Shown here: positions 1,129 through 13,764 of the stretch, one piece after another
Layout: the number at the start of each line of letters is the position of its first letter
How positions within the stretch are numbered: position 1 is the stretch's first letter
DNA from: an uncultured virus (IMG/VR IMGVR_UViG_3300009507_000015)
Lineage: Duplodnaviria; Heunggongvirae; Uroviricota; Caudoviricetes
Length of the DNA: 20,000 nt
Direction: 5' to 3' (one strand)
IMG/VR virus record: IMGVR_UViG_3300009507_000015
Translations under genes and position numbers: made by a program
The notes under the pieces: model-generated
The model's input: the letters and a program-made list of their open reading frames with translations, nothing else
The model's database searches: none
Told to the model about the DNA's origin: nothing

Positions 1129-1369
1129 TTATCTGTTAATTCAGGAAATCGAACAACAAGAAACTAAAACAGATTCAGGAATTATAATACCTGTTGAGAA
1201 ACATAATCGCCAAGCAAAGATTATTAATGCTGGTGATGCAGAGTATTTAAAGGCTGGAGATGTTATATTAAAAAATATGGGCAAAGGTACAATGTTAACT
1301 TTAAATAATACAGAATTTGAAGTAATACATATTAACCAAATAATTGCCGTAGTAGAAGATAATGGCTAA
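1106..1369 (+). CDS. groES: GroES/Cpn10-like co-chaperonin (true start may be ATG 1112 or 1118)
   Basis: Mobile-loop 'ETKTDSGIIIP', 'LKAGDVIL' and C-terminal 'IIAVVE' follow the GroES pattern (EKTASGIIIP...VKVGD.VL...DILAIV). Confidence 0.85.
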   Translation: MEMKMKNDYLLIQEIEQQETKTDSGIIIPVEKHNRQAKIINAGDAEYLKAGDVILKNMGKGTMLTLNNTEFEVIHINQIIAVVEDNG

Positions 1370-3176
1370 ACCACAAGCAGAATCAGCAGGATTTGAATTT
1401 AAGATATCGAAAGGTGCTGAGTCTTTTGCGTGGACTAGTCATAAAGTTGAGCAATTAATGCTGGCTATTGATGAAGGTTATAAACCAAAGTCTACACCTT
1501 TCTATGAAGGTAATCCTAATTTAAGAAAAGGTAATATTGTATTTAATTATACTGATGAAGAGATAAGAGAAATTAAAAGGTGTGCAAAAGATATTGTTTA
1601 TTTTGCTAATACTTATTGCACTGTAATGACGGATGAAGGTTTACAGACAATTGAACTAAGGCCTTACCAAGAAAATATGTTAAGGCAATTTCAAGCTGAA
1701 AGATTTAATATATGTTTAGCAAGTAGGCAGGTTGGTAAAACAATATGTTCATCTATTTTTATTGCATGGTATTCGGTATTTAATTTTGATAAAAATTCGC
1801 TAATACTTTCAAATAAGGGTGCTACAACAAGAGAGATTATTGATAAAGGTAAAACTATATTAGAACATTTACCTTTCTTTATCAAGCCCGGTACACTTAA
1901 ATGGGATGTGTTTAATTCCAAGTTTGATAATGGTTGTAGAATCATAGGTCAGACAACAACTAAGAAAGCAGCAATTGGTTTTACTATTCATTTATTATTT
2001 ATGGATGAGTTTGCTCATATACCTGCAAACTTTGTAAATACCTTTTATGAAAATGTTTATCCAACGGTGTCTGCATCTACAAACTCTAAAGTAATAATAA
2101 CTAGTACACCTAATGGTTTTAATAAGTTCTATGACATCTATACAGCTGCTGATAAAGGATTAAGTGAATATACGCCATTCCGAGTTGATTGGTGGGATGT
2201 ACCTGGAAGAGATGACGCATGGATGAGACAAGAGGTTGCCAACTTAGGAAGTGATGAAGCATTTAATAGACAGTATGGAAATCAGTTTATAGCAAGCTCT
2301 TCATTATTATTAAGTGCAGCTAGTTTAAAAAAGTTAACACAAGGCCAAATAGAATTTGAACATAAAGAGATACCAGAATTTGATGATGCCGAAATTGATT
2401 ACTCCGGTTTACTATGGCAACCTAATTTTAATTTAGATGAAATAGAAGAAGATTATAATTATTGGGTATTCTCGGTTGATATAGCAGAAGGTACAGGTGG
2501 AGACTTTTCAGTTATTAATATTTTTCAGATTAAGATGCTAGATGAAAAGGATTGGAAAGGTGTAACCACGCCTGGAAGTTTTGTTGACTTTTTTGGTATT
2601 AGTCAAATAGGAAGATTTAGAAGTAATTCTCATACCATAGAAGAATTTGCAAAAACACTATACATTTTAGCATTTGATTTATTTTACTCAGAAAATGTAA
2701 AATTAATTATAGAATGGAATATGTTTGGTGGAGAATTAATAAAAAGAATGGAAACTGTATTTCCACAGAGAAATGAATTTGATGAAGAAAGTGTTGTTAA
2801 ATTTAAACATAGAGTTGATGCCAAAACAAAACAATTTGGCCTTAAAGTAAAAAAAGATAATAAACCTATTTTCTGTCAAAACTTTAAAAAATATATTTCT
2901 CAAAATAAAATTAGCATTTATGATAAAGATACTGTAAAAGAATCATCAACCTTTGGTAAACTCCCAAATGGATCATATGCAGGCCAATTAGGTAATGATG
3001 ATTTAATTATGACTTGTATAAATAGTTCTGAGTTCTTTACTACATTAGATTTTTCAGATTTTGTCGAAGAGATTTATGATGAGATAGATCCTTCTATTCA
3101 AAATAAGATAGAAGAAATTCTAGAAAAAGATTCAAAGGGTGGGAATCTAAATTTTGATATCTATGACTTAGTATAA
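1362..3176 (+). CDS. terL: Terminase large subunit (T4 gp17-like)
   Basis: Adenine-binding LRPYQ, Walker A ASRQVGKT, Walker B LLFMDEFA, coupling motif ITSTPNG, nuclease 'VDIAEG..GDFS' and 'NDDLIM'. Confidence 0.97.
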   Translation: MAKPQAESAGFEFKISKGAESFAWTSHKVEQLMLAIDEGYKPKSTPFYEGNPNLRKGNIVFNYTDEEIREIKRCAKDIVYFANTYCTVMTDEGLQTIELRPYQENMLRQFQAERFNICLASRQVGKTICSSIFIAWYSVFNFDKNSLILSNKGATTREIIDKGKTILEHLPFFIKPGTLKWDVFNSKFDNGCRIIGQTTTKKAAIGFTIHLLFMDEFAHIPANFVNTFYENVYPTVSASTNSKVIITSTPNGFNKFYDIYTAADKGLSEYTPFRVDWWDVPGRDDAWMRQEVANLGSDEAFNRQYGNQFIASSSLLLSAASLKKLTQGQIEFEHKEIPEFDDAEIDYSGLLWQPNFNLDEIEEDYNYWVFSVDIAEGTGGDFSVINIFQIKMLDEKDWKGVTTPGSFVDFFGISQIGRFRSNSHTIEEFAKTLYILAFDLFYSENVKLIIEWNMFGGELIKRMETVFPQRNEFDEESVVKFKHRVDAKTKQFGLKVKKDNKPIFCQNFKKYISQNKISIYDKDTVKESSTFGKLPNGSYAGQLGNDDLIMTCINSSEFFTTLDFSDFVEEIYDEIDPSIQNKIEEILEKDSKGGNLNFDIYDLV

Positions 3177-3235: not shown

Positions 3236-6200
3236 ATGGCACTAGATCCAAAAATAGCTTCTCTTAAAGCTGCAGGAACATATAGGTTTGAATTTGATAA
3301 AAGTCAAGTCGTAAGTATACCTGCAAATCAAACTCGATTGGTAGTCGGTTTTTCTAAGACAGGCCCGTTCAATACACCCGTCTTTGTTCCCGATACTTCT
3401 TTCTTTAAACAAGTATACGGTGATATAGATAGAAATTTAGAAAGAAAAGATTCTTTTTTCCACAGAAGCTGTTTATCAGCTCTTGAAAGAGGTCCTATTC
3501 TTGCTCTTAATTTATTAAGCTTAGATGCTACTGATAAAGTTAATGCTGTTCGTTTTGCAACATCTGCAACACCAGAGGCACAAGCTAATATAGGAGCAGA
3601 CTATGAATACGCAAAATTTTATAACAGAGATAAATTTTGGTTTCCATCAACATCAGATTTTTTAACTAATGTTGGGGCAAATCAAGATGTATTAAGTTCA
3701 TTAACAGTAAATGATTTATTAGATGTTACTAACTTAGGACAAAATCCTATATCTGTAATCGCTAAAAAATCTGCTGCAACAAACGTTTTACCTTATCAAG
3801 TAACTGTTGAGGAATGGTATGGTGCTGCAAATGTACCAGGTTTCTTAGATAAAGATAGTTTAATATCTGACTTCTTTGTAGATATCTTTGTATTAAAAGG
3901 TAACTTCGGTGGAGACTTTAGTACTACTACTCCTTATTCAAGGTTTAATTCAGATCCATTATTTCAAAAGTATTTTGATCCAACACAAGGATTAAAAAGA
4001 AAAAAGTTTGCAACTGATTCTACAGATACATTATTACAAGAATTCTTTAATGAAACTGAAGTAACACTACAAGCAACTTATACTGCATGTTTAATTCCGG
4101 ATTTTGTAGATTTATTAGGTAATAACCTTTTCGTTGAAAAAGTTGTTAATGCTGATACTGCAAGTACTGGATTATTTGTTACTGTAAATGAAGATTTATT
4201 TAGTGGAGATATTTTAATAGATGGTGTACCTGGAGGAATTGATATGATAGGACACAATATTGAATATACTCAGGCTACTTCAATCCAAGATGATGTTAAT
4301 TTCTTATCATACGGTGGATCAATTGTTTCTGACTTATCTTATGCAAGAACACAAACCTTATCTACAACTGTAGTTAATTCAGCAAGTACAATAACTACTT
4401 CTGTTCCTACTGCTGGAGGTATACAAATACAACTAGTAAATACTGATGCTACTAAAGATGCTATCTGGGATGCATTCTCAGGAATGAGAGCAAATACGTC
4501 TTCATTAGTAGGATCATTTATATATGATACTGTAACTACTGAATGGGTACCAGTAACATCTGTACAAACTGTAGGTAATACTGTAACTGTATTATTATCA
4601 GATGTAGGTTCAACGCAATTAGCAGATTTTCCAACAGGTGCTGCTGCAAGTTATACTTATATTAATGAAGCTGACTTTGGATTTGTAAGAAATACAAATG
4701 TAAGTGGTGGAGCTGCTGGAATTATTGGTTCTTATGGATCAACATTACAAAAGCAATTTGCTAACGGTACTTTAACTGATGGTGATGAAGCAGTTTACAA
4801 AGATGCATTAGGAACTTATACTTCTTATTTAGCAATGAATTCTATAGACTTTGGATGGATTATTGATGGAGCTGGGGCAACTGCTGCAGGAACTAAGAAA
4901 GCAATATCTGATCCAGCATATTATTTACCAGCTGTAAGCATTACTCCTTATGAACAAGATTCATTTACTACATTAACGCCACAATCTCAATTTACAATTG
5001 ATAGCACAGGGCAATTTATTAAGTCTGATGGTACGGCATTATGGCCAGTAAATACTTTAGGTGTACAAACACTAAAAGGTGCTCTTAACCTTACTGTAGA
5101 TATTATAGGTGATTCATTAAACGAACCAACATTAAAGCCAAATGAAATTCTTATTGCAACAACTTCACCAGAACTTGCTGATATTGTTGTAGGAAATTAT
5201 ATGGTACATTTTGAAGGTTCTGCTACAATACCACATTCTAGGTTAACAAGAATAAACATTGTAGAAGGTGGATTAACTCCTTCGGAATATGCAATTATTC
5301 CTGCAGGAACAACTGCCATTAAAGTAACATGTCAATCTGAGGTTAGTGTAACTGCACAAGGTGCTTTAAAAACAGTAGAGGTTTATTATCCAATTGATTC
5401 TTGGGTAGATTACCTTAATGTATTTGAATTACCTGGGTTTGCATTAGATTCAACTAAACATGTACCTGATGGAACAAATTCTAGACAGAATAAATGTTTA
5501 AGTCCAATATTAGGTGGAACTAATTTATATAAAGCTTTAATCGACAGAGAAACAATTAACTTCCGTTATGTAGTAGATACTTATGGAAATGGAATTGAAG
5601 CAAACTGTAAAGCTATTTATACAAATTTATGTATGAGTAGAAAAAATGCATTTGCTATTGTAAATTCTCCATCAGCTAAAGACTTTAAGAAAAATACAGA
5701 TCCAAGTTTCTCTGATGCAACTGGAGGGTTATCCTCTAAGTTTATATCTGAAGGTGGAAACCTTGCACTGAATCCAACAATTAGATTCTCGTTACCTGCT
5801 GCAACAAGCGGTGGTTCATGGGGAGGGTATTATTATCCATTCTTAACTGTTAGAGATTTAGGTAAGAACATAAGTGTACCACCTGCAGCATATGTATCAA
5901 ATAACTTTATTCTTAAATATGAAAACGCATTACCTTGGTCAATCGTAGCAGGTGTAAGACGTGGAGTAATAGGTGGAAATGGAGTTGTAGGATTAGAGAT
6001 TAATCTTGACCAAGAAGACAGATTCTTCCTAGAGCCATTCGGAATCAATCCAATTGTATTCCAAAGTGGAACAGGACCAACTATCTTTGCAAATAAAACT
6101 GCTCAGCAAGTTCCAAAATCTGCTTTAAGTTCAATTAATGTTAGAGAGGTTGTAATTTACATCCAAGATGGTATTGAAGCAATTCTTAAAAACTACTTAT

Positions 6201-6454
6201 TTGAATTTAATACAGCTCAAACAAGATTAGAGATTAAAACATTAGCTGATAACTTCTTAGCAACTGTTCAAAATGATGATGGTGTTTATGATTATAGAAA
6301 TATAATGGATGAAACCAATAACACACCAGAGGTCATTGATCAAAATGTAGGTATCCTAGATACATATATTGAACCAACGAGAGGAATGGAAATTCTTGTA
6401 CAAAGAACAACTATTTTAAGAACTGGTGCAATTAGTACAGGAAACTTTCAATAA
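3236..6454 (+). CDS. Contractile tail sheath protein (T4 gp18-like), enlarged
   Basis: N-terminal 'AGTYRFEFDKS...VVGFSKTGPFNTPV'; C-terminal 'PWSIVAGVRRG', 'GINPIVF', 'SINVRE', 'FEFNTAQTR', 'DETNNTPEVID...YIEPTRGME' are standard sheath motifs. Confidence 0.96.
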   Translation: MALDPKIASLKAAGTYRFEFDKSQVVSIPANQTRLVVGFSKTGPFNTPVFVPDTSFFKQVYGDIDRNLERKDSFFHRSCLSALERGPILALNLLSLDATDKVNAVRFATSATPEAQANIGADYEYAKFYNRDKFWFPSTSDFLTNVGANQDVLSSLTVNDLLDVTNLGQNPISVIAKKSAATNVLPYQVTVEEWYGAANVPGFLDKDSLISDFFVDIFVLKGNFGGDFSTTTPYSRFNSDPLFQKYFDPTQGLKRKKFATDSTDTLLQEFFNETEVTLQATYTACLIPDFVDLLGNNLFVEKVVNADTASTGLFVTVNEDLFSGDILIDGVPGGIDMIGHNIEYTQATSIQDDVNFLSYGGSIVSDLSYARTQTLSTTVVNSASTITTSVPTAGGIQIQLVNTDATKDAIWDAFSGMRANTSSLVGSFIYDTVTTEWVPVTSVQTVGNTVTVLLSDVGSTQLADFPTGAAASYTYINEADFGFVRNTNVSGGAAGIIGSYGSTLQKQFANGTLTDGDEAVYKDALGTYTSYLAMNSIDFGWIIDGAGATAAGTKKAISDPAYYLPAVSITPYEQDSFTTLTPQSQFTIDSTGQFIKSDGTALWPVNTLGVQTLKGALNLTVDIIGDSLNEPTLKPNEILIATTSPELADIVVGNYMVHFEGSATIPHSRLTRINIVEGGLTPSEYAIIPAGTTAIKVTCQSEVSVTAQGALKTVEVYYPIDSWVDYLNVFELPGFALDSTKHVPDGTNSRQNKCLSPILGGTNLYKALIDRETINFRYVVDTYGNGIEANCKAIYTNLCMSRKNAFAIVNSPSAKDFKKNTDPSFSDATGGLSSKFISEGGNLALNPTIRFSLPAATSGGSWGGYYYPFLTVRDLGKNISVPPAAYVSNNFILKYENALPWSIVAGVRRGVIGGNGVVGLEINLDQEDRFFLEPFGINPIVFQSGTGPTIFANKTAQQVPKSALSSINVREVVIYIQDGIEAILKNYLFEFNTAQTRLEIKTLADNFLATVQNDDGVYDYRNIMDETNNTPEVIDQNVGILDTYIEPTRGMEILVQRTTILRTGAISTGNFQ

Positions 6455-6494: not shown

Positions 6495-7049
6495 ATGCCA
6501 CTACCACATTATACCCAATCAAGGGCCAGTAGCCAAAGGTACGAACCTATTCAGCCTAACCTATTTGAGGTGACTGTATTTTCACCACTAGGGGATGATA
6601 CGGGTTTAATCTTAGAGCAAGTAAAATCAATCGGAGGATTAAATAACTTAAATCCATCTATTGATGCTATAAATCAAAAATATAAGTTTGCTGATAGATC
6701 TTATGCAGGTATGCCAGCTCAGACGTTTGTTGATTTAACCATGAACTTTACTCTTAATTTGAATGAAGCTAATGAAAACTACATTTATAATACTTTCCGT
6801 AATTGGAATAACTTAATCTATGATCCATTAACTGGTGAAATGGGATTAAAGAAAGATTATATAGGAAGTATGATTGTAGTTCAATATAACAGAGCAGGTG
6901 ATATTTTCAGAAAGATTACATTTAAAGATGTATTCCCAACTGGACAACCTGATTTTGTGGATGAATTGAATTATGAAACTCAAGATGCAGCTGAATTAAC
7001 AATGACTTATCGTTGTGATCACTGGGTTGAAGAGAACGTAGGAGCATAA
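6495..7049 (+). CDS. Tail tube protein (T4 gp19-like)
   Basis: 184 aa directly after the sheath; 'PNLFEV', 'FRNWNNLIYDPLTG', 'KKDY', 'FKDVFPT', 'ELNYE', 'MTYRCDHW' are typical of gp19-like tubes. Confidence 0.92.
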   Translation: MPLPHYTQSRASSQRYEPIQPNLFEVTVFSPLGDDTGLILEQVKSIGGLNNLNPSIDAINQKYKFADRSYAGMPAQTFVDLTMNFTLNLNEANENYIYNTFRNWNNLIYDPLTGEMGLKKDYIGSMIVVQYNRAGDIFRKITFKDVFPTGQPDFVDELNYETQDAAELTMTYRCDHWVEENVGA

Positions 7050-7136: not shown

Positions 7137-7607
7137 ATGATAATCTATAAATTACAACAGCAAAAAACAAACAAGGTTTATGTAGGGTATTCTATAAACG
7201 ATAACCCAAATAACCTTGGATCAGGCAAATACATCAAAAGAGCAGTTAGAGATTTTGGAACTAAAGCTTTTAATAGAGAAGTTCTAGAAATTTTTGAAGG
7301 CAATGAACCTTTAAGTGATGTTTTAAAAAGAGTGGAATATTGGATTGGTAAATTTAAATCTGATAATCCTAAATATGGTTTCAATGAAACTGTACAAGAA
7401 CTTATTCCTCAAAAGAAAAGGCTTACTAAAAAATTACAAGTTTTATTAACACCTGAAGATGAGGATAGTCTAAATACAATAATTATACAAAAATCAATGG
7501 AAACTGGTATAAAACCTGTAGCAATTTCTAGATATGTAAGACAGTTAATAGTAGAGCATATTGTTGATGAAAATAAAATTGAAAAACAATTAATAAAAAA
7601 TAATTAA
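7137..7607 (+). CDS. GIY-YIG (Seg-like) domain fused to a C-terminal ribbon-helix-helix-like domain
   Basis: 'IIYKL....TNKVYVGYS', 'LGSGKYIKRAVRDFG..AF.REVLE' and 'NPKYGFN' match Seg-type GIY-YIG. The C-terminus 'LTKKLQVLLTPEDEDSL...AISRYVRQLIVEHI' has an RHH pattern. Confidence 0.75.
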   Translation: MIIYKLQQQKTNKVYVGYSINDNPNNLGSGKYIKRAVRDFGTKAFNREVLEIFEGNEPLSDVLKRVEYWIGKFKSDNPKYGFNETVQELIPQKKRLTKKLQVLLTPEDEDSLNTIIIQKSMETGIKPVAISRYVRQLIVEHIVDENKIEKQLIKNN

Positions 7608-7609
7608 AA

Positions 7610-8608
7610 ATGTCAAAAGAGCACGAAGAAAATATTAAGAAAGAATTTGCTGCTGCTGAAGGTATTGCAGTAGAAGCTACAGAAACTCCTAAAGAAACAG
7701 TTAAGGAATTAGGTAAAGTTGATGTTAACAGACAAATGGATAAAATTACGTCTGATGATGTAGAAATAAAAAGATTAAATGCATTAGTAGGATATACTAA
7801 ATTAGATCTTACTACATTCCCATCAAGAGGTAAATTTTATAGAGATGATTTTGAAATTCATATCAGGCCTGCAAGAGTTGCTGAAATTAGAGCGTTTTCT
7901 ACAATAGACGAAAACAATTTAAAAGAAGTAGATGATGGATTAAATAATATTGTACTATCATGTAGTAAAGTACAATATGGAAATCAAAGAGGATCTTATA
8001 AAGATGTTCTTGAAGAAGACAGGATTTATTTAATTTTGTCAATTAGAGAATTAACATTTAAAACAGGAGAACAAACATTAATGATGCCTGTTGGAAAAAA
8101 ATCATGTAAAACTAATAATTGTAAAGCACAAGAATCTGTTGAATTGAGAACAAACAATTTACAATTTAATACTATCGTTGATTCAATTGAAAAATATTAT
8201 GATGATGCTGATAGGTGTTATTCTATAACTACAAAAAATTATGGCATGATTAAATTGGCACCACCTACAATCGGTGTTATGAGAGCTATAACTGATTATA
8301 TCAGAACTAGGGAAGAAAAAAATCAAAGCTGGGATAAATCTACACTAGCTATCTTGCCTTACTTACAGAGAGAATGGCGAGGATGGCAAGAAAAAGATAT
8401 ATTTTCTTTAATTACCTCCTTTCAAGGATGGGATGCTACAAAATATACAATTGTGTATAGGTTAGCTGAAGATTTAAAAATCGGTGTAAAGCCGGAGATG
8501 GGATTCCCATGTCAAAGCTGCGGTGAGGAGGTCACCGTTCCGCTCACGTTTCCCGGCGGTATCAAGGCTATGTTCATTATTCCAGATATCTCTGCTGAAC
8601 TTCTTTAA
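7610..8608 (+). CDS. Baseplate hub / tail assembly chaperone (T4 gp26-like)
   Basis: 'FPSRGKFY', 'IRPARVAE', 'EDRIYLILSIRELTF', Cys pairs (CKTNNC; CQSCG) and 'LAPPTIG'; located between tube and tape measure. Confidence 0.75.
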   Translation: MSKEHEENIKKEFAAAEGIAVEATETPKETVKELGKVDVNRQMDKITSDDVEIKRLNALVGYTKLDLTTFPSRGKFYRDDFEIHIRPARVAEIRAFSTIDENNLKEVDDGLNNIVLSCSKVQYGNQRGSYKDVLEEDRIYLILSIRELTFKTGEQTLMMPVGKKSCKTNNCKAQESVELRTNNLQFNTIVDSIEKYYDDADRCYSITTKNYGMIKLAPPTIGVMRAITDYIRTREEKNQSWDKSTLAILPYLQREWRGWQEKDIFSLITSFQGWDATKYTIVYRLAEDLKIGVKPEMGFPCQSCGEEVTVPLTFPGGIKAMFIIPDISAELL

Positions 8609-8858
8609 AGTCAGAGTATTACTTTTAGAAAAGTTGCATCTCCAGCCTTCAGAGCTGGATTTGCTTCCTTTCTATGAATATGAGTATACATTAGAAATTT
8701 ATAATGATTTACTAAAAGAGCGTAATAAGCAAGAGCAACAAAATACTAAAGACACTCAGGATAAATACAATATGGATGGCTTAAAAAGCCAGGCTTCTAG
8801 TCAAATGAAAGGTATGAAAGCACCAAAGATGCCTTCATTAAAAATGCCTAAATTGTAA
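8523..8858 (+). CDS. gp51-like/tail chaperone second ORF overlapping the upstream gene in the +1 frame; real start unclear, possibly reached by frameshifting
   Basis: 'SLLNFFK...LQPSELDLLPFYEYEY' resembles the small 'SLENYY...ELENMMPWERE' protein that follows gp26 in T4-like phages. No ATG precedes this conserved core. Confidence 0.65.
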   Translation: MRRSPFRSRFPAVSRLCSLFQISLLNFFKVRVLLLEKLHLQPSELDLLPFYEYEYTLEIYNDLLKERNKQEQQNTKDTQDKYNMDGLKSQASSQMKGMKAPKMPSLKMPKL

Positions 8859-8872
8859 AAAATAAACCTTAA

Positions 8873-11848
8873 ATGGCTGCCGTAACTTTAAAAGATTTAA
8901 TGGACCCTCTAAAGAAAATAGAGGCTGCCGCCAATGAAACCAATGAAAAGTTAGATGCTCTTATTGCAGTCTCTACTGGTGGTAATGATGGTGGTGGATC
9001 AATGGCCATTATAAGTGAATTACAAACTCAAACTCTATTGCTTCAACAAATAGCGGCAAGTTCCGCTGATGAGGCGGAGTATTCCAGTAGAAATTTAAGC
9101 AATTTTATTTTTACTCGTTTGCACAGAAAGAAACTATTATCAGCACTAAAAGAAAAAAATGAAGAAGATGCTGCAGGTGGCGGTGCTCCTGCAGGTGGTG
9201 GAGGTGGTAAACTAGCTGATTTAAAAGCATTAGGTATAGGATCTATTAAAACTGCAATGGGAATGATTCTTTGGGCAGTTGTACCTAAGAAAGGTGTAGA
9301 GAAATTTGCCAATTTTATTGAAACCACATTTACTAAATTAGCAGAACAAGATTCCAAAAAAGTTAAAGAAGGTATTGAGTCATTAGATATGATGGGTGGT
9401 GCAATATTTAAATTTGCAAAAAGTTTAGCATTAGCCACACCACTTTTATTAATCGGTGCATTAGGAATTCCTATTTTATACTTAACTACTATATTGGTTA
9501 CTCCATTATTTCTTTTACTAGGAATGGCGGAAAAACAAATTAAAGGTGGTGGAGAAGCTATGGCTGATATGGGTATGGGATTGGTCAAATTTGCAGCCGG
9601 TTTAGCGCTCTTTGCTTTAGTATCTTATTTTGTTATGCAAGGCGGACTGCCTCTAATGATGACTATGGCTGGATCTATAATATTAATAGGTGGTGCCGTA
9701 GCTCTTTTAGGTTTAGTTGATAAACAAGTTAAGAAAGGTTCTGTTGCTTTAGCTATGATGGGTATTGGTTTAGCAGTATTTGGTTTAGGATATGCAGCCT
9801 ATGCAGGATTAATTGCATTAACAGCTCCAACATTAGGTGATATAGCATTACAAGCAGGAATATTAGTAGGGCTAGGAATAGCAACTGCTTTATTAGGATT
9901 TGCATTTTCTTTTATAATACAAGGTGCACTTTCAATGGTTGCCATGGGTGTTGGTTTATTAGTCTTTGGTTTAGGATATATTCCATTTGCTCATGCTACT
10001 AAAGATACTACAATGGAAGATGTTGGGGTACAGGGTGCATTATTATTAATGTTAGGTTTAGAATTTGCAGCAGCAGGATTAGGCGCATTATTTATTATAC
10101 CAGGAGCTCTAGCGTTTGCAGCAATCGGTGGTGCACTGTTATTATTAGCACCGGGATTAGCAGCTATTCAAAAAGTTAACTTTACAGAAAAAGATGCTGT
10201 TAAACTAACAACAACATTAGCTGGTGTAAAAACGGCATTTATAGGGCCTCCTAAAGGTGGAGGAATAAAAGGAATATTTGCAAGCATAGGTGGCGCAATA
10301 AGCGGTGGAGCAGATGCTGTTGCTATGGTATCAGCTGCCGCAGGTTTTGCAGCAGCAGGTAAAGCATTAAGTTTATTATCAGTAGGATTAAAAGATTATC
10401 AAAAACTAGATTGGACTGATGAAGAAAGTGTACAATTAGCTGGAGTTTTATCTGGTATTAGTACAGCCTTTGCACAAGCAGGTGGAGAAGCTGCAACCCC
10501 AACAGGTTTATTTGGAGCTGTATTTGGAAATGCGTTTAGTCCTAATGCAACTAAGAAAGGAATAGATTCTGTAATGGGTGCAGGTAAAGCATTAACTAGT
10601 ATAGCAGTAGGTTTAACAGAATTTCAAAAATTAGTAGATAGTCAAGTAGATTTTGTTGTATTAGGAGATGCAATATCTAAAACAGTTGGATTCATACAAA
10701 GAGCATTTGCTGCCGTAGCCGAGGAAGGTAATGTAGATGCAGGTGGATTCTTTGGATCATTATTTGGAATTAAAAAGAATAAAGTAGCAGAAGGATTATC
10801 TTCGGTGCAAGGTGCAGGTACTGCCTTAAAAGATATTGCAATTGGTTTAACTGAATTTCAAAAATTAGTTGAATCTAAAGTAGATTTTGATGCAGTTGGT
10901 GCAGCTATATCTAAATCAGTTGGTTTTGTACAAGAAGCGTTTGCAGCTGTTGCCGATCAAGGTAATGTACAGGCTGGTGGTTTTTGGGGAAGCCTACTTG
11001 GAATTAAAAAGAATAAAGTAGCAGAAGGTGTTGAATCAGTACAGGGTGCAGGTGCAGAATTAAGAAATATTGCAGAAGCCTTATCTACATTTTCAGGTAT
11101 TGAAGATCCTGAAGCTGTTGCTATGAAAATTAAAACAACATTAGGTTTAGTTGGTTCTGCTTTTGCTTCTATTGGTGGAGCAGAAAATGAAGAATCGGAT
11201 TCTTGGTTATTTTTTAGTTGGGATGAAAATAAAATACAAAAAGGTATTGAGGCTGTTGATGGTGCAGGTTCTGCATTAACAGATATTGCAGAAGGCCTTA
11301 AAGCTTTCAGTGGAGATTTTCAACCGGAAGCGGTTGCAGCATCGGTAGGTAAATTATTAACTTCTATAGGAACTGCGTTCAGTGATCTTTATGCAGCTAA
11401 TCCTGAAATGTCTCAAGAACTAGATGATTTTAAATCCTTTATAGTAACTTTAGGGGATGTTGCAGAAAAAGGCCAATTAGATAAAGCTGCTGAAGGTATT
11501 TCTAAAATTGCAGATTCAATTAATAAAATAGATATTGACAAGGCAGTATCATTTGGTAATTTATTTGATAGCGCATCTAACCTATCATCTGATAGAGGAG
11601 CTTATAGGGCATTAGCTAGAGCAGTTGAAGATATTAGGGATATGATGGAAGCTGGTGGAGACAGTCCTAACATATTAGAAAGAATAACTGGAACAGGTGG
11701 AGATTCTAAGAAATCTTCGTCTAGTAGTGGTGGATCTTCGGAACTTAAGAAGACTCTAAACTCTTTAAATAGAACTATTGGATCATTACCTCAAAACATA
11801 TCAACTGCAATCCAAACAGTTGAAATATCCGTATCAGGCCCAGCATAA
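8873..11848 (+). CDS. Tape measure protein-like (Ala/Gly-rich, hydrophobic segments, internal repeats)
   Basis: 991 aa, follows the tail chaperone pair, has an N-terminal coiled coil, a hydrophobic repeat region and roughly 78-aa amphipathic repeats. Confidence 0.75.
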   Translation: MAAVTLKDLMDPLKKIEAAANETNEKLDALIAVSTGGNDGGGSMAIISELQTQTLLLQQIAASSADEAEYSSRNLSNFIFTRLHRKKLLSALKEKNEEDAAGGGAPAGGGGGKLADLKALGIGSIKTAMGMILWAVVPKKGVEKFANFIETTFTKLAEQDSKKVKEGIESLDMMGGAIFKFAKSLALATPLLLIGALGIPILYLTTILVTPLFLLLGMAEKQIKGGGEAMADMGMGLVKFAAGLALFALVSYFVMQGGLPLMMTMAGSIILIGGAVALLGLVDKQVKKGSVALAMMGIGLAVFGLGYAAYAGLIALTAPTLGDIALQAGILVGLGIATALLGFAFSFIIQGALSMVAMGVGLLVFGLGYIPFAHATKDTTMEDVGVQGALLLMLGLEFAAAGLGALFIIPGALAFAAIGGALLLLAPGLAAIQKVNFTEKDAVKLTTTLAGVKTAFIGPPKGGGIKGIFASIGGAISGGADAVAMVSAAAGFAAAGKALSLLSVGLKDYQKLDWTDEESVQLAGVLSGISTAFAQAGGEAATPTGLFGAVFGNAFSPNATKKGIDSVMGAGKALTSIAVGLTEFQKLVDSQVDFVVLGDAISKTVGFIQRAFAAVAEEGNVDAGGFFGSLFGIKKNKVAEGLSSVQGAGTALKDIAIGLTEFQKLVESKVDFDAVGAAISKSVGFVQEAFAAVADQGNVQAGGFWGSLLGIKKNKVAEGVESVQGAGAELRNIAEALSTFSGIEDPEAVAMKIKTTLGLVGSAFASIGGAENEESDSWLFFSWDENKIQKGIEAVDGAGSALTDIAEGLKAFSGDFQPEAVAASVGKLLTSIGTAFSDLYAANPEMSQELDDFKSFIVTLGDVAEKGQLDKAAEGISKIADSINKIDIDKAVSFGNLFDSASNLSSDRGAYRALARAVEDIRDMMEAGGDSPNILERITGTGGDSKKSSSSSGGSSELKKTLNSLNRTIGSLPQNISTAIQTVEISVSGPA
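10610..11077 (+). repeat. Tandem 234-nt (78-aa) intragenic duplication
   Basis: GLTEFQKLV starts at 10610 and 10844. A 31-nt exact match TTGGAATTAAAAAGAATAAAGTAGCAGAAGG occurs at 10764-10794 and 10998-11028. Confidence 0.9.
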
Positions 11849-13134: not shown

Positions 13135-13478
13135 GGGGGTGACCGGTTTTTGACAATCTGATTGAAATAAAAACTACAGCACCGGGTGATGACCAACATC
13201 AATCTTAGCCGACAACGCTGAGTTAGCAATGGCTGCCTAAGTAGGTAAGTAATGCACATCATGTTATTAGTATGCTTGTAAATAATTAAGATGAAAAACG
13301 AAAGCAGCTACAGGTTAATCAAAGTTCCTTAATACTTGGCAAGTTTTGATTCTCATGGAGTATCTTGTAAAAAACCATTGAGATATTTTTGGAAGTTTAA
13401 AAAAACTTATCCTAAGCTGTAAGAAATGTTTTTATGAATGCTTATTGGACGTGGGTTCGAATCCCACCACCTCCACCA
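13135..13478 (+). ncRNA. ssrA: tmRNA (SsrA), one-piece, 344 nt; predicted tag (A)ADNAELAMAA
   Basis: 5' GGGGGTG pairs with 3' CACCTCC-ACCA, including the G3:U alanine identity pair. T-arm GTGGG-TTCGAAT-CCCAC preceded by GGAC. 5' 'GACCGGTTTTTGACA'. Helix TACAGC/GCTGTA. Tag frame GCC...GCT GCC TAA at 13208-13240. Confidence 0.95.
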
Positions 13479-13482
13479 CAAT

Positions 13483-13556
13483 GGGGAATTAGCTCAGCTG
13501 GCTAGAGCGCCTGCCTTGCACGCAGGAGGTCATCGGTTCGACTCCGATATTCTCCA
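13483..13556 (+). tRNA. tRNA-Ala(TGC); CCA not encoded
   Basis: Acceptor GGGGAAT/ATTCTCC-A with G3:U70, D-arm GCTC/GAGC, anticodon stem CCTGC/GCAGG with TGC at 13517-13519, T-arm ATCGG-TTCGACT-CCGAT. Followed by CAA, not CCA. Confidence 0.98.
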
Positions 13557-13572
13557 CAAAAAAATAAACATT

Positions 13573-13764
13573 ATGAAAAAAGATTATGAATTCGTTATTA
13601 AAGTAATTAGAAATAAAGAAAATAGATTAATACATTATCCAGCTATTAAAAATTTAATAGATATTTGGAAAAATAAATGGAGAGGATCTAAAAAATATAG
13701 TAAAAACATATATGATGTTTATTTACATTCTCTTAAACTTAACCTTAAAAGATCATTTAGGTAA
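13573..13764 (+). CDS. Small basic hypothetical protein (63 aa, MKKDYEF...)
   Basis: Plausible coding 3' part of the listed 13438..13764 ORF. ATG 13573 has an A-rich leader like other genes here, while the upstream part overlaps the tmRNA and tRNA. Confidence 0.6.
   Translation: MKKDYEFVIKVIRNKENRLIHYPAIKNLIDIWKNKWRGSKKYSKNIYDVYLHSLKLNLKRSFR

What the first reader, a model, noticed from the sequence alone, without database searches (positions are those of the whole stretch)
8491..8664. GC-rich structured cassette at the tail-chaperone overlap: candidate programmed +1 (or -2) recoding
Seen: 8491-8560 is 44/70 GC in a roughly 30% GC window, driven by synonymous G/C-ending codons (CCG GAG...AGC TGC...GTC ACC...CCG CTC ACG...CCC GGC), which points to selection on the RNA. 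It can fold: hairpin CGGTGA-GGAGG-TCACCG (8521-8537) with a Shine-Dalgarno-like GGAGG loop in a window whose genes otherwise lack SD motifs, an enclosing imperfect stem 8491-8503/8544-8557, and a downstream hairpin GCA-TC-TCCAGC/GCTGGA-TT-TGC (8636-8664). The gp51-like ORF overlaps in the +1 frame with no ATG before its conserved core. Two candidate shift sites exist: CTT-TAA (8603-8608; slipping to TTT gives F/L-K-V-R, like the prfB CUU-stop site) and TTT-CCC-G (8549-8555). Known: tail chaperones before tape measures make G/GT pairs by -1 (lambda) or -2 (Mu) shifts. Inference: this is an unusual +1-type, structure-assisted version in a T4-like phage. The apparent homology of 'SLLNFF' begins before the stop, which favours an earlier shift site.
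Basis: partly seen in the sequence, partly recalled or inferred. Interest (0 to 1): 0.8.

Follow-up and report, generated by a model that had tools for sequence, protein, structure and literature searches.

The report
Conserved +1 frameshift in phage tail chaperone
A giant-phage gene lying between the tail tube and tape-measure genes seems to make a second, longer protein when ribosomes slip forward one base at a rare-codon site, behind a conserved RNA hairpin, in a wide group of large phages.

Summary
8491-8560 is 44/70 GC, the highest value of any 70-nt stretch in the window, and it is built from rare codons.

ORF1 (7610-8608, 332 aa) belongs to the T4 gp26/gp51 "hub assembly chaperone" family. 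It lies between the tail tube gene and a tape-measure-like gene. ORF2 is in the +1 frame in the window, in all 77 close metagenomic loci that reach the ORF1 end, and in 14 of 14 distant phages (PAU, Lak, Tenacibaculum, Chryseobacterium and Flavobacterium phages and huge uncultured phages).

In 49 unique close sequences, substitutions switch from ORF1 third positions to +1-frame third positions about 30 nt before the ORF1 stop. This rules out CTT-TAA as the shift site. A +1-frame stop at 8544-8546 in 21 of 49 confines the shift to 8547-8576. Within that interval only ACG-TTT-CCC-GG is invariant at synonymous sites. CCC makes up 2.6% of Pro codons.

GGAGG lies 17 nt upstream of TTT in most lineages, inside a hairpin with compensatory covariation. 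The downstream hairpin also covaries, but its role is unknown. The enclosing stem and the "gp51-like ORF2" label are not supported.

No protein-level evidence exists. I rate this a new variant of the tail-chaperone frameshift.

The parts
6495..7049 (+). Tail tube gene (context)
   Evidence: phrog_32623 at 7e-36 and phrog_3629 'tail tube protein' at 5e-7. It follows the sheath gene 3236-6454.
7610..8608 (+). ORF1, 332 aa. A gp26/gp51-family (PF12322) chaperone-like protein with two CxxC pairs; the 0-frame product.
   Evidence: phrog_36717 at 3.6e-26. 38/80 family members hit PF12322 and 32/80 hit phrog_150 'baseplate hub'. AF2 pLDDT 90.6. BFVD matches to T4-like baseplate hub proteins. 496 representative relatives.
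8520..8538 (+). Upstream hairpin HP1: a 7-bp stem with loop GGAGG (8527-8531)
   Evidence: Predicted. Pair 8522:8536 is GC 35 / AU 12 / GU 2 of 49, with no mismatch. Its r2 ranks 2nd of 971 nearby site pairs. Synonymous sites in the stem and loop are almost invariant. A hairpin enclosing GAGG recurs in distant phages.
8544..8546 (+). Position of a +1-frame stop codon in relatives; the 5' limit of the shift interval
   Evidence: TAA or TGA here in 21/49 unique close sequences. The homologous spot carries a stop in LR756500, LR756501 and L094.
8549..8555 (+). Most likely +1 shift site, UUU_CCC_G (Phe314-Pro315)
   Evidence: The block 8546-8556 is invariant in 49/49, including three synonymous sites. 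CCC is 2.6% of Pro codons. TTT-CCC occurs at the homologous spot in 7 distant lineages, and TTT-C in 12 of 14.
8556..8858 (+). +1-frame part (ORF2 domain, 100 aa plus stop). 8556-8605 is dual-coding with the ORF1 tail.
   Evidence: Translation. From 8576 to the ORF1 stop the changes fall 25/0/2 on ORF1 codon positions 1/2/3. The conserved core FSLFQ...QPSE..PFYEYE and the C-terminal K-x-P-K motif appear.
8603..8608 (+).
   Evidence: The +1-frame selection begins upstream of it. 11/49 relatives carry CTT-TTA-TAA instead.
8636..8664 (+). Downstream hairpin HP2, inside the ORF2 coding sequence; role unknown
   Evidence: Pair 8645:8655 is GC 30 / AU 17 / GU 2 of 49, and 8642:8658 is CG 40 / UG 9. 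Its r2 ranks 1st of 971.
8873..11848 (+). Tape-measure-like gene, 991 aa (context)
   Evidence: Assigned by position, size and hydrophobic, Gly-rich repeats. The only family hit is weak: phrog_788 'tail protein' at E 0.0013. A syntenic 1086-aa gene is present in MA9V-2.

Best explanation
ORF1 encodes a chaperone of the T4 gp26/gp51 family, placed between the tail tube and tape-measure genes. Most ribosomes read it to the TAA at 8606 and make a 332-aa protein.

A fraction of ribosomes slip one base forward at UUU_CCC_G (8549-8555). Either peptidyl-tRNA-Phe moves from UUU to UUC while the very rare CCC codon waits in the A site, or tRNA-Pro moves from CCC to CCG. Both routes give the same protein. 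These ribosomes continue in the +1 frame to 8858 and make a 415-aa fusion (...TVPLTFP-AVSRLCSLFQISLLNFFK...), which carries a small helical domain and a basic C-terminal K-x-P-K tail.

The pair is the functional counterpart of lambda G/GT. A hairpin that shows GGAGG in its loop, ending 10 nt before UUU, is a conserved part of the signal.

Shown: the conserved +1 phase, +1-frame purifying selection inside the overlap, the 30-nt interval that must hold the shift, RNA-level constraint, and covariation.

Inferred: the exact codon, the hungry-codon mechanism, a stimulatory role for the hairpin/GGAGG, the existence and ratio of the two proteins, and the chaperone function.
For: Phase: ORF2 is +1 in 77/77 close IMG/VR loci with a complete ORF1 end (80 fetched, 3 run off). 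It is also +1 in 14/14 distant phages with 18-58% ORF1 identity.

No natural fusion: no in-frame fused form appears among the 150 listed representatives of 496; I read 8 of them, picked for length or early match end.

Selection: in 49 unique sequences, Fitch changes per ORF1 codon position 1/2/3 are 6/0/28 in 8546-8575 and 25/0/2 in 8576-8605. They continue on the +1-frame third position after the stop.

Interval: a +1 stop lies at 8544-46 in 21/49. Of these 21, 18 have no ATG/GTG/TTG in the +1 frame before the ORF1 stop.

RNA constraint: only 14 of 114 synonymous-capable ORF1 codons have an invariant third base, and 10 of those lie in the 16 codons 8507-8554 (Fisher p 9.5e-8).

Rare codon: CCC is 5/193 Pro codons in the window. 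It is equally rare in distant loci, where the site's CCC is the only one in the frames counted for LR745206 (1/38) and LR756502 (1/38), and one of two for PAU (2/77).

ATC codon: the rare ATC before AAR is used in 5/5 'IK' lineages. It gives Ser in the +1 frame and avoids a +1 TAA, which suggests +1 decoding upstream of 8574.

GGAGG and hairpin: GAGG ends 17 nt before TTT in 10 of 12 lineages tested, and a hairpin encloses it (Fisher p 1.6e-4). Covariation at 8522:8536 is.

+1-frame protein: the spacing from FSL to P(F/Y/W) reads as 32-33 residues (my count on the, 39 translations), while the ORF1 stop floats 10-14 codons after the conserved Phe.

Literature: CCC and UUU are named the most slippery +1 codons after CUU (PMC10885494, passages read). 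+1 shifts at rare CCC occur in Listeria phage PSA (PMC5009743, passages read).
Against: - There is no protein, ribosome-profiling or reporter evidence.
- Four lineages have UUU_CAA, where the A-site codon is common. MA9V-2 lacks the site and has AUU_UUU_C nine codons later. Many distant lineages also have a prfB-like CUU_U or AUU_U at the later Leu/Ile-Phe motif, so the site may differ between lineages.
- A fusion made at 8549-8555 would lack Gly317 and Phe322, which are nearly invariant in the family.
- GGAGG is 17 nt from the P-site codon. That matches neither the 3-nt prfB spacing nor the roughly 10-nt dnaX spacing (both recalled). Likely hosts (Bacteroidia) sequester the anti-SD (PMC10798248, abstract). 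Published upstream-hairpin stimulators sit next to the E site (PMC6321510, abstract and passages).
- Folding energies are not better than shuffles.
- TTG 8634 is invariant in 49/49. PAU, LR756500 and MaF61 have ATG codons near the ORF1 stop. A separately started short ORF2 product is therefore not excluded as an additional product.
Confidence: 0.72

Rival explanations
1. The frame change happens later, at the conserved Leu/Ile-Phe motif (window 8570-8576). The route would be a +1 slip of tRNA-Leu/Ile on NUU_U or a -2 slip of tRNA-Phe from UUC onto UUU. The fusion would keep the whole ORF1 domain through Phe322.
For: 0-frame conservation ends (Phe322) exactly where +1-frame conservation begins. 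CTT-TTC or ATT-TTC occurs in 8 distant lineages, and MA9V-2 has ATT-TTT-C at the same spot. TTC is used there although it is rare: 1/66 Phe codons in the LR756500 locus.
Against: In the window clade the site reads ATG/CTC/CTG/CTA-TTC in 47/49, which allows no re-pairing. The rare TTC is equally explained by a +1-frame Ser codon. The use of ATC upstream suggests that +1 decoding has already begun. The GGAGG spacing tracks the upstream TTT.
Confidence: 0.12
2. ORF2 is a separate small gene, initiated on its own at TTG 8634 or, in relatives, at a nearby ATG. The overlap is incidental.
For: Public annotations call small separate genes: PAU gp94, MA9V2_060, BPT24_131, MaF61 ORF156 and PTm1 ORF-023. 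TTG 8634 is invariant. ATG codons lie near the ORF1 stop in PAU, LR756500 and MaF61.
Against: The +1 phase is invariant in 91 of 91 loci. +1-frame purifying selection starts 30 nt before the ORF1 stop. 18 of the 21 sequences with the proximal +1 stop have no start codon in the overlap. The annotated starts of gp94 and MA9V2_060 fall inside the conserved PFYE motif. The G of TTG 8634-8636 is paired in HP2.
Confidence: 0.08
3. A prfB-like +1 shift occurs at the last sense codon, CTT-TAA (8603-8608).
For: CUU_U before a stop is the classic +1 site. NTT-TAA ends ORF1 in the window, LR756500 and MA9V-2.
Against: The +1 frame is already under selection 10 codons upstream. 11/49 close relatives carry CTT-TTA-TAA. 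Distant relatives end ...AAA-GAA-TAA, GAT-TTT-TAA or GAT-GAG-TAA. No SD-like motif lies 3 nt upstream.
Confidence: 0.04
4. The frame change is made in the RNA, by transcriptional slippage or editing, or it is an assembly error.
For: None specific.
Against: There is no homopolymer longer than 3 nt at the site. The same arrangement appears in 91 independent assemblies. Contigs from two RNA libraries cross the site with no indel (X1 8346-8614 and X3 8466-8741). Contigs hide rare variants and may derive from DNA.
Confidence: 0.02

Closest known systems
Lambda G/GT, P2 E/E+E' and Mu tail assembly chaperone frameshifts (Xu, Hendrix & Duda 2004; reviewed in PMC5009743, passages read)
   Same: Two overlapping ORFs lie between the major tail or tube gene and the tape-measure gene. 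The second ORF has no reliable start of its own. The frame relation is conserved across very divergent phages. A short and a C-terminally extended product are expected.
   Different: The shift is +1, not -1, and there is no XXXYYYZ heptamer. ORF1 is 332 aa and belongs to PF12322 rather than a known TAC Pfam family. The signal is a conserved 5' element rather than a 3' element.
Listeria phage PSA/A118/A500 +1 frameshifts at rare CCC (cps ACA_CCC_UCC with pseudoknot; tsh CCC_UGA; PMC5009743, passages read)
   Same: A low-GC genome, a +1 shift on or next to a rare CCC codon, and a phage structural module.
   Different: Those shifts occur in capsid and major tail genes, and the stimulator is a 3' pseudoknot or a stop codon. 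Here the next codon is GGC and no supported 3' structure lies within 10 nt. The hairpin 8540-44/8555-59 shows no covariation.
E. coli / Flavobacterium prfB +1 frameshift (CUU_UGA_C with an SD 3 nt upstream; PMC10798248, abstract read)
   Same: A +1 slip with an SD-like GGAGG upstream. The likely hosts are Bacteroidia, where the SD is conserved although the anti-SD is sequestered.
   Different: The shift is not at a stop codon (tested here). GGAGG is 17 nt from the slip codon, not 3, and it sits in a hairpin loop.
T4 gp26 and gp51 hub assembly chaperones (PF12322; PMC3004832, Table 2 passage read)
   Same: ORF1 is a sequence and fold relative. T4 gene 51 lies upstream of genes 27, 28 and 29, the last being the tape measure. 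In both cases there is a short form and a form with a C-terminal extension.
   Different: T4 uses two separate, divergently transcribed paralogous genes and no frameshift. The gp51 tail shows no detectable similarity to the ORF2 domain.
UUU_CGN +1 sites of influenza PA-X and amalgaviruses (recalled, not checked in a paper here)
   Same: tRNA-Phe slips from UUU to UUC in front of a slowly decoded C-starting codon. MaF61 has UUU_CGA.
   Different: Those are eukaryotic ribosomes and RNA viruses, and no upstream hairpin is known.
Refolding upstream hairpins that stimulate +1 frameshifting (PMC6321510, abstract and passages read)
   Same: A 5' hairpin acting on a +1 site, shown to work on 70S ribosomes.
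   Different: Those hairpins were engineered and sit next to the E site. Here there is a 10-nt spacer and a conserved GGAGG loop.

Membership tests
Tail assembly chaperone G/GT-type programmed frameshift | Gene pair located between the major tail/tube gene and the tape-measure gene | tested here: met
   The order sheath, tube, (endonuclease), ORF1/ORF2, 991-aa TMP-like gene is shown. The same order holds in PAU, MA9V-2 and pT24. The TMP identity rests on position and composition plus a weak phrog_788 hit.
Tail assembly chaperone G/GT-type programmed frameshift | The second ORF overlaps the first in a conserved alternative frame and lacks a conserved start | tested here: met
   +1 in 77/77 close and 14/14 distant loci. 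No start codon in 18 of the 21 sequences with the proximal +1 stop.
Tail assembly chaperone G/GT-type programmed frameshift | -1 slippery heptamer XXXYYYZ | tested here: not met
   No such heptamer lies in 8547-8605. The frame relation is +1/-2.
Tail assembly chaperone G/GT-type programmed frameshift | G-like chaperone fold | tested here: inconclusive
   The top three of 48,161 chains by VIA-align are 3klu YqbN (Z 4.6), 3fgx (Z 3.1) and 2ob9 HK97 tail assembly chaperone (Z 3.0). That YqbN is an XkdN-type tail chaperone is recalled. The Z values are in the noise range, and Foldseek against the PDB found nothing.
Tail assembly chaperone G/GT-type programmed frameshift | Two products made in a fixed ratio, both absent from virions, binding the tape measure and the tube | not testable with these tools
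   This needs protein work.
PF12322 T4_baseplate (T4 gp26/gp51 hub assembly chaperones) | Pfam score above the gathering cut-off | tested here: inconclusive
   The window protein scores 14.2 bits against a cut-off of 24.5. 38/80 family members match (best 6.7e-10). hhalign of the family against gp51 gives prob 70.7%, E 3.8e-5, and against gp26 prob 24.9%. BFVD Foldseek matches to 'baseplate hub subunit/assembly protein' range from E 1.7e-9 to 1e-5.
prfB-type +1 frameshift | Shift at the codon before an in-frame stop | tested here: not met
   +1-frame selection starts 30 nt before the stop.
prfB-type +1 frameshift | SD-like sequence about 3 nt upstream of the slip codon | tested here: not met
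   GGAGG ends 17 nt before UUU.
Rare-CCC +1 frameshift (Listeria phage PSA type) | In-frame rare CCC codon at the shift site in a low-GC genome | tested here: met
   CCC at 8552-8554; 5/193 Pro codons; invariant in 49/49.
Rare-CCC +1 frameshift (Listeria phage PSA type) | Stop codon or pseudoknot immediately 3' of CCC | tested here: not met
   The next codon is GGC. The only nearby predicted pairing (8540-44/8555-59) has mismatches and no covariation.

The most novel reading that the evidence does not exclude
The gp26/gp51-type 'hub assembly chaperone' is the missing G/GT equivalent of T4-related and jumbo myoviruses. In the PAU/Lak/marine clade, one gene makes the short and long forms by a +1 frameshift. 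T4, quoted as the exception to the conserved tail-chaperone frameshift, reaches the same end with two paralogous genes: gp26 as the short form and gp51 with a C-terminal extension.

The signal would itself be a new kind of +1 stimulator. It is a hairpin that shows GGAGG at a fixed 17 nt before UUU_C, and it is kept in phages whose hosts do not use Shine-Dalgarno sequences.
Probability: 0.2. Interest if true: 0.85.

Novelty: new variant of a known kind. Interest (0 to 1): 0.7.

Why it matters
- It would add a large and ecologically abundant group of jumbo and mega phages, including the Lak phages and common marine phages, to the set with a tail-chaperone frameshift. Their annotations currently show a hypothetical protein plus a mis-started mini-gene, or nothing at all.
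- The direction is +1, which is rare in phage tail-chaperone genes. The shift uses a rare-codon slip site and a conserved 5' GGAGG hairpin at a spacing that no known stimulator explains. The hosts probably ignore SD sequences, which makes the ribosome-mRNA mechanism directly testable.
- It links the poorly understood T4 gp26/gp51 chaperones to the G/GT paradigm.
- In practice, gene callers and frameshift predictors miss this site.

Tried and rejected
- **Complex prediction:** tail tube (A3) with the ORF2 domain (A4) gave no verdict, score 0.00. This says nothing either way about binding.
- **Rfam:** no family matched in 8300-8900 at E <= 1.
- **Foldseek, ORF1 model against the PDB:** nothing at E <= 0.001.
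- **ORF2-domain profile against T4 gp51:** no similarity, prob 0.2%. A pairwise BLASTP stretch (KLHLQPSEL.. against KLLVNPDEI..) had E 0.95 and was dropped.
- **Pfam and PHROGs on the +1 part:** only phrog_8286 (unknown function) at E 0.0099.
- **Folding energy:** MFE z-scores of -0.52 and -1.43 give no support.
- **Rejected pairings:** the enclosing stem 8491-8503/8544-8557, and the small hairpin 8540-44/8555-59 around the slip site, which shows no covariation.
- **-2 slip at TTT-CCC:** rejected by inspection, since no re-pairing is possible.
- **GGAGG as the SD of an internal start:** rejected, because no start codon follows in any frame within 15 nt.
- **Searches for more diverse loci:**
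  - P0127 and P0216 found no loci.
  - P0154 found two.
- **Own assembly:** not held.
- **Earlier findings of this scan:** none (one search did not complete).
- **Literature:**
  - 'phage PAU' + frameshift gave 2 irrelevant papers.
  - 'Lak phage' + frameshift + tail, gp26 + gp51 + 'tail assembly chaperone' and 'baseplate hub' + 'ribosomal frameshift' + 'tape measure' + jumbo gave nothing, judged from the listed titles and abstract openings, describing this frameshift.
  - Subscription journals and supplements were not seen.
Full report
**Setting**

The window carries a myovirus structural block. In order it holds the large terminase (1362-3176), a 1072-aa sheath (3236-6454), the tube (6495-7049), a homing-endonuclease-like ORF (7137-7607), ORF1 (7610-8608, 332 aa), an ORF open in the +1 frame (8488-8858), and a 991-aa tape-measure-like gene (8873-11848). 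These are followed by an exonuclease and T4-type topoisomerase II subunits.

The relatives found with ORF1 are jumbo and mega phages: uncultured LR756500 (47% aa identity), Sphingomonas phage PAU, Prevotella Lak phages, and phages of Chryseobacterium, Tenacibaculum and Flavobacterium. Translation starts in the window have A-rich leaders, and none of 19 has an SD-like motif. From this and the relatives I infer a Bacteroidota-type host; this is not shown.

8491-8560 is 44/70 GC in a 31% GC window, the maximum for any 70-nt stretch. The excess sits at codon third positions (15/24 here against 15.7% overall) and uses the rarest codons of the genome. CCC is 5 of 193 Pro codons. ACG is 4.2% of Thr codons, GTC 4.4% of Val, TGC 2/38 of Cys and CTC 1% of Leu.

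**The frame relation is conserved**

I fetched 80 close IMG/VR loci (77-100% ORF1 identity). Of these, 77 reach the ORF1 end and 3 run off. In all 77 the ORF2 homologue is in the +1 frame and ORF1 ends in TAA.

The same holds in 12 of 12 distant phage records and in 2 further IMG/VR loci. That makes 14 of 14 at 18-58% identity.

Among the 150 listed representatives of 496 clusters, lengths give no sign of an in-frame fusion. I read 8 of them, chosen for length or an early end of the match, and none continues into an ORF2-like sequence.

Public annotations of the small downstream gene start at an ATG inside the conserved P-F-Y-E motif (PAU gp94, MA9V2_060) or inside the overlap. These starts are not credible.

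**Where the frame changes**

I aligned 75 usable sequences without gaps over -400 to +178 around the stop. These were the window plus 74 loci; six loci were dropped because three were too short and three lacked the end. They gave 49 unique sequences. I counted parsimony changes per site on a tree.

- Up to 8572, changes fall on ORF1 third positions. In 8546-8575 the counts for positions 1/2/3 are 6/0/28.
- From 8576 to the stop they fall on ORF1 first positions, which are +1-frame third positions (25/0/2). The same phase continues after the stop.

The +1 frame is therefore translated and under purifying selection at least 10 codons before the ORF1 stop. CTT-TAA cannot be the shift site.

A +1-frame stop codon occupies 8544-8546 in 21 of the 49 sequences. 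The homologous spot carries a stop in LR756500, LR756501 and L094. The shift must therefore lie in 8547-8576. In 18 of those 21 sequences, no ATG, GTG or TTG exists in the +1 frame before the ORF1 stop.

**The site**

Inside that 30-nt interval, only ACG-TTT-CCC-GG (8546-8556) is invariant, including three synonymous positions.

Across ORF1 codons 8207-8572, only 14 of 114 synonymous-capable codons never vary at the third base. Ten of those lie in the 16 codons 8507-8554 (Fisher p 9.5e-8).

At the homologous position, distant phages read as follows:
- TTT-CCC in PAU, LR745206, LR756502, pT24, LR756501, L094 and L095.
- TTT-CAA in LR756500, Lak-B5, Lak-C1 and PTm1.
- TTT-CGA in MaF61.
- TAC-CCC-A in LR756504.
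- MA9V-2 has no such codon pair there, but has ATT-TTT-CTA nine codons later.

CCC is as rare in those loci as in the window. It is 1/38 of the Pro codons counted in LR745206 and in LR756502, where the site itself is that one codon, and 2/77 in PAU.

UUU_C and CCC_N both allow perfect +1 re-pairing, and either slip gives the same protein...TFP-AVSR.... One further hint that +1 decoding begins upstream of 8574 is the Ile codon before Lys. It is the rare ATC in all five 'IK' lineages, which gives Ser in the +1 frame, whereas ATA would create a +1 TAA.

A competing site is the Leu/Ile-Phe motif (8570-8576). Many distant lineages have CUU_U or AUU_U there. The window clade has no slippery sequence at that spot in 47/49 sequences.

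**RNA elements**

*Hairpin HP1 (8520-8538, loop GGAGG).* It has a clean compensatory pair, 8522:8536, which reads G:C 35, A:U 12, G:U 2 and no mismatch.

*Hairpin HP2 (8636-8664).* It has 8645:8655 as G:C 30, A:U 17, G:U 2.

These two pairs are the two most strongly correlated of 971 nearby variable site pairs. Each changed several times on the tree, with 5 and 8 joint-state changes. A variant contig in an RNA library carries both HP2 changes together.

*GGAGG position.* GAGG ends exactly 17 nt before TTT in 10 of 12 distant lineages tested (14 nt in pT24, 22 nt in MaF61). A stem encloses it more often than in flank-shuffled controls (combined p 1.6e-4). The lineages are not independent, and the stems differ in register. 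The Glu codon there is always GAG, although GAA dominates these genomes.

Folding energies alone are unremarkable. No Rfam family matches.

*How HP1/GGAGG acts is not known.* The 17-nt spacing fits neither the prfB spacing nor the dnaX spacing (both recalled). Bacteroidia sequester the anti-SD (PMC10798248, abstract). Published upstream hairpins that stimulate +1 shifting on 70S ribosomes abut the E site (PMC6321510, abstract and passages). With UUU or CCC in the P site, the 3' arm of HP1 would lie 11-17 or 14-20 nt upstream. By my recollection of ribosome footprints, that is about where mRNA leaves the ribosome. A refolding effect is plausible but inferred.

HP2 lies 80 nt downstream of the site, and I assign it no role.

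**The proteins**

ORF1 folds confidently (pLDDT 90.6). It has no Foldseek match in the PDB. Its three best VIA-align matches are YqbN, 3fgx and the HK97 tail assembly chaperone, all at low Z of 4.6-3.0.

Among viral models, it matches T4-like 'baseplate hub subunit/assembly' proteins (E 1.7e-9 and weaker). Of 80 family members, 38 hit Pfam PF12322 and 32 hit phrog_150.

Both T4 gp26 and T4 gp51 are PF12322 members. The review of T4 tail assembly lists both as hub assembly chaperones (PMC3004832, table passage). The family profile aligns to gp51 with prob 70.7%.

The ORF2 domain has a conserved core, FSLFQ..L.N..K....QPSE...PFYEYE, followed by a low-complexity stretch and a basic K-x-P-K end. 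It resembles nothing known, including gp51. ORF1, not ORF2, is therefore the gp26/gp51-like part.

**Other checks**

Contigs from two RNA libraries cross the site without an indel. This is weak evidence against RNA-level frame change.

**Verdict**

I put a conserved programmed +1 frameshift that yields a 415-aa fusion at about 0.85. Placing it at UUU_CCC_G in this window has lower odds, and 0.72 is my confidence in the best explanation as stated. It works like the G/GT tail-chaperone pair but differs in direction, slip site, protein family and 5' signal. I found no description of it in four literature searches. Everything rests on comparative sequence evidence; no product has been observed.

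Noticed in passing
window 13135-13557: The phage carries a tmRNA gene (13135-13478, Rfam RF00023, 75.8 bits, tag peptide DNAELAMAA) directly followed by tRNA-Ala(UGC) at 13483-13557. The listed ORF 13438-13764 overlaps them and is probably spurious.
   Followed up: partly
window 8636-8664: A hairpin inside the ORF2 coding sequence has compensatory covariation (8645:8655) and no obvious function. Its 5' arm contains CUCC, which could pair with the GGAGG loop 110 nt upstream.
   Followed up: partly
L086 (Lak-B5) 3348-3350 versus L087 (Lak-C1): The +1-frame ORF2 of Lak-B5 has an in-frame TAG where Lak-C1 has GAA. This fits the TAG reassignment reported for Lak phages (recalled, not checked here).
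   Followed up: no
window 7137-7607: A homing-endonuclease-like ORF (phrog_314, E 2.3e-9) sits between the tube gene and ORF1. A GIY-YIG-like ORF occupies the same place in LR756500 (L001 2333-2878).
   Followed up: no
L002 5010-5147, L003 4863-5039, L088 3387-3608, L090 3399-3569, L092 3528-3650: The deposited small genes downstream of the ORF1 homologues (PAU gp94, MA9V2_060, BPT24_131, MaF61 ORF156, PTm1 ORF-023) are truncated or mis-started pieces of the +1-frame domain.
   Followed up: yes
window 8634-8636: The rare Leu codon TTG is invariant in 49/49 close sequences. It could be an alternative start for a short ORF2 product, or be fixed because its G pairs in HP2.
   Followed up: partly
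window 3236-6454: The tail sheath protein is unusually long, at 1072 aa. Only its C-terminal third matches sheath families.
   Followed up: no
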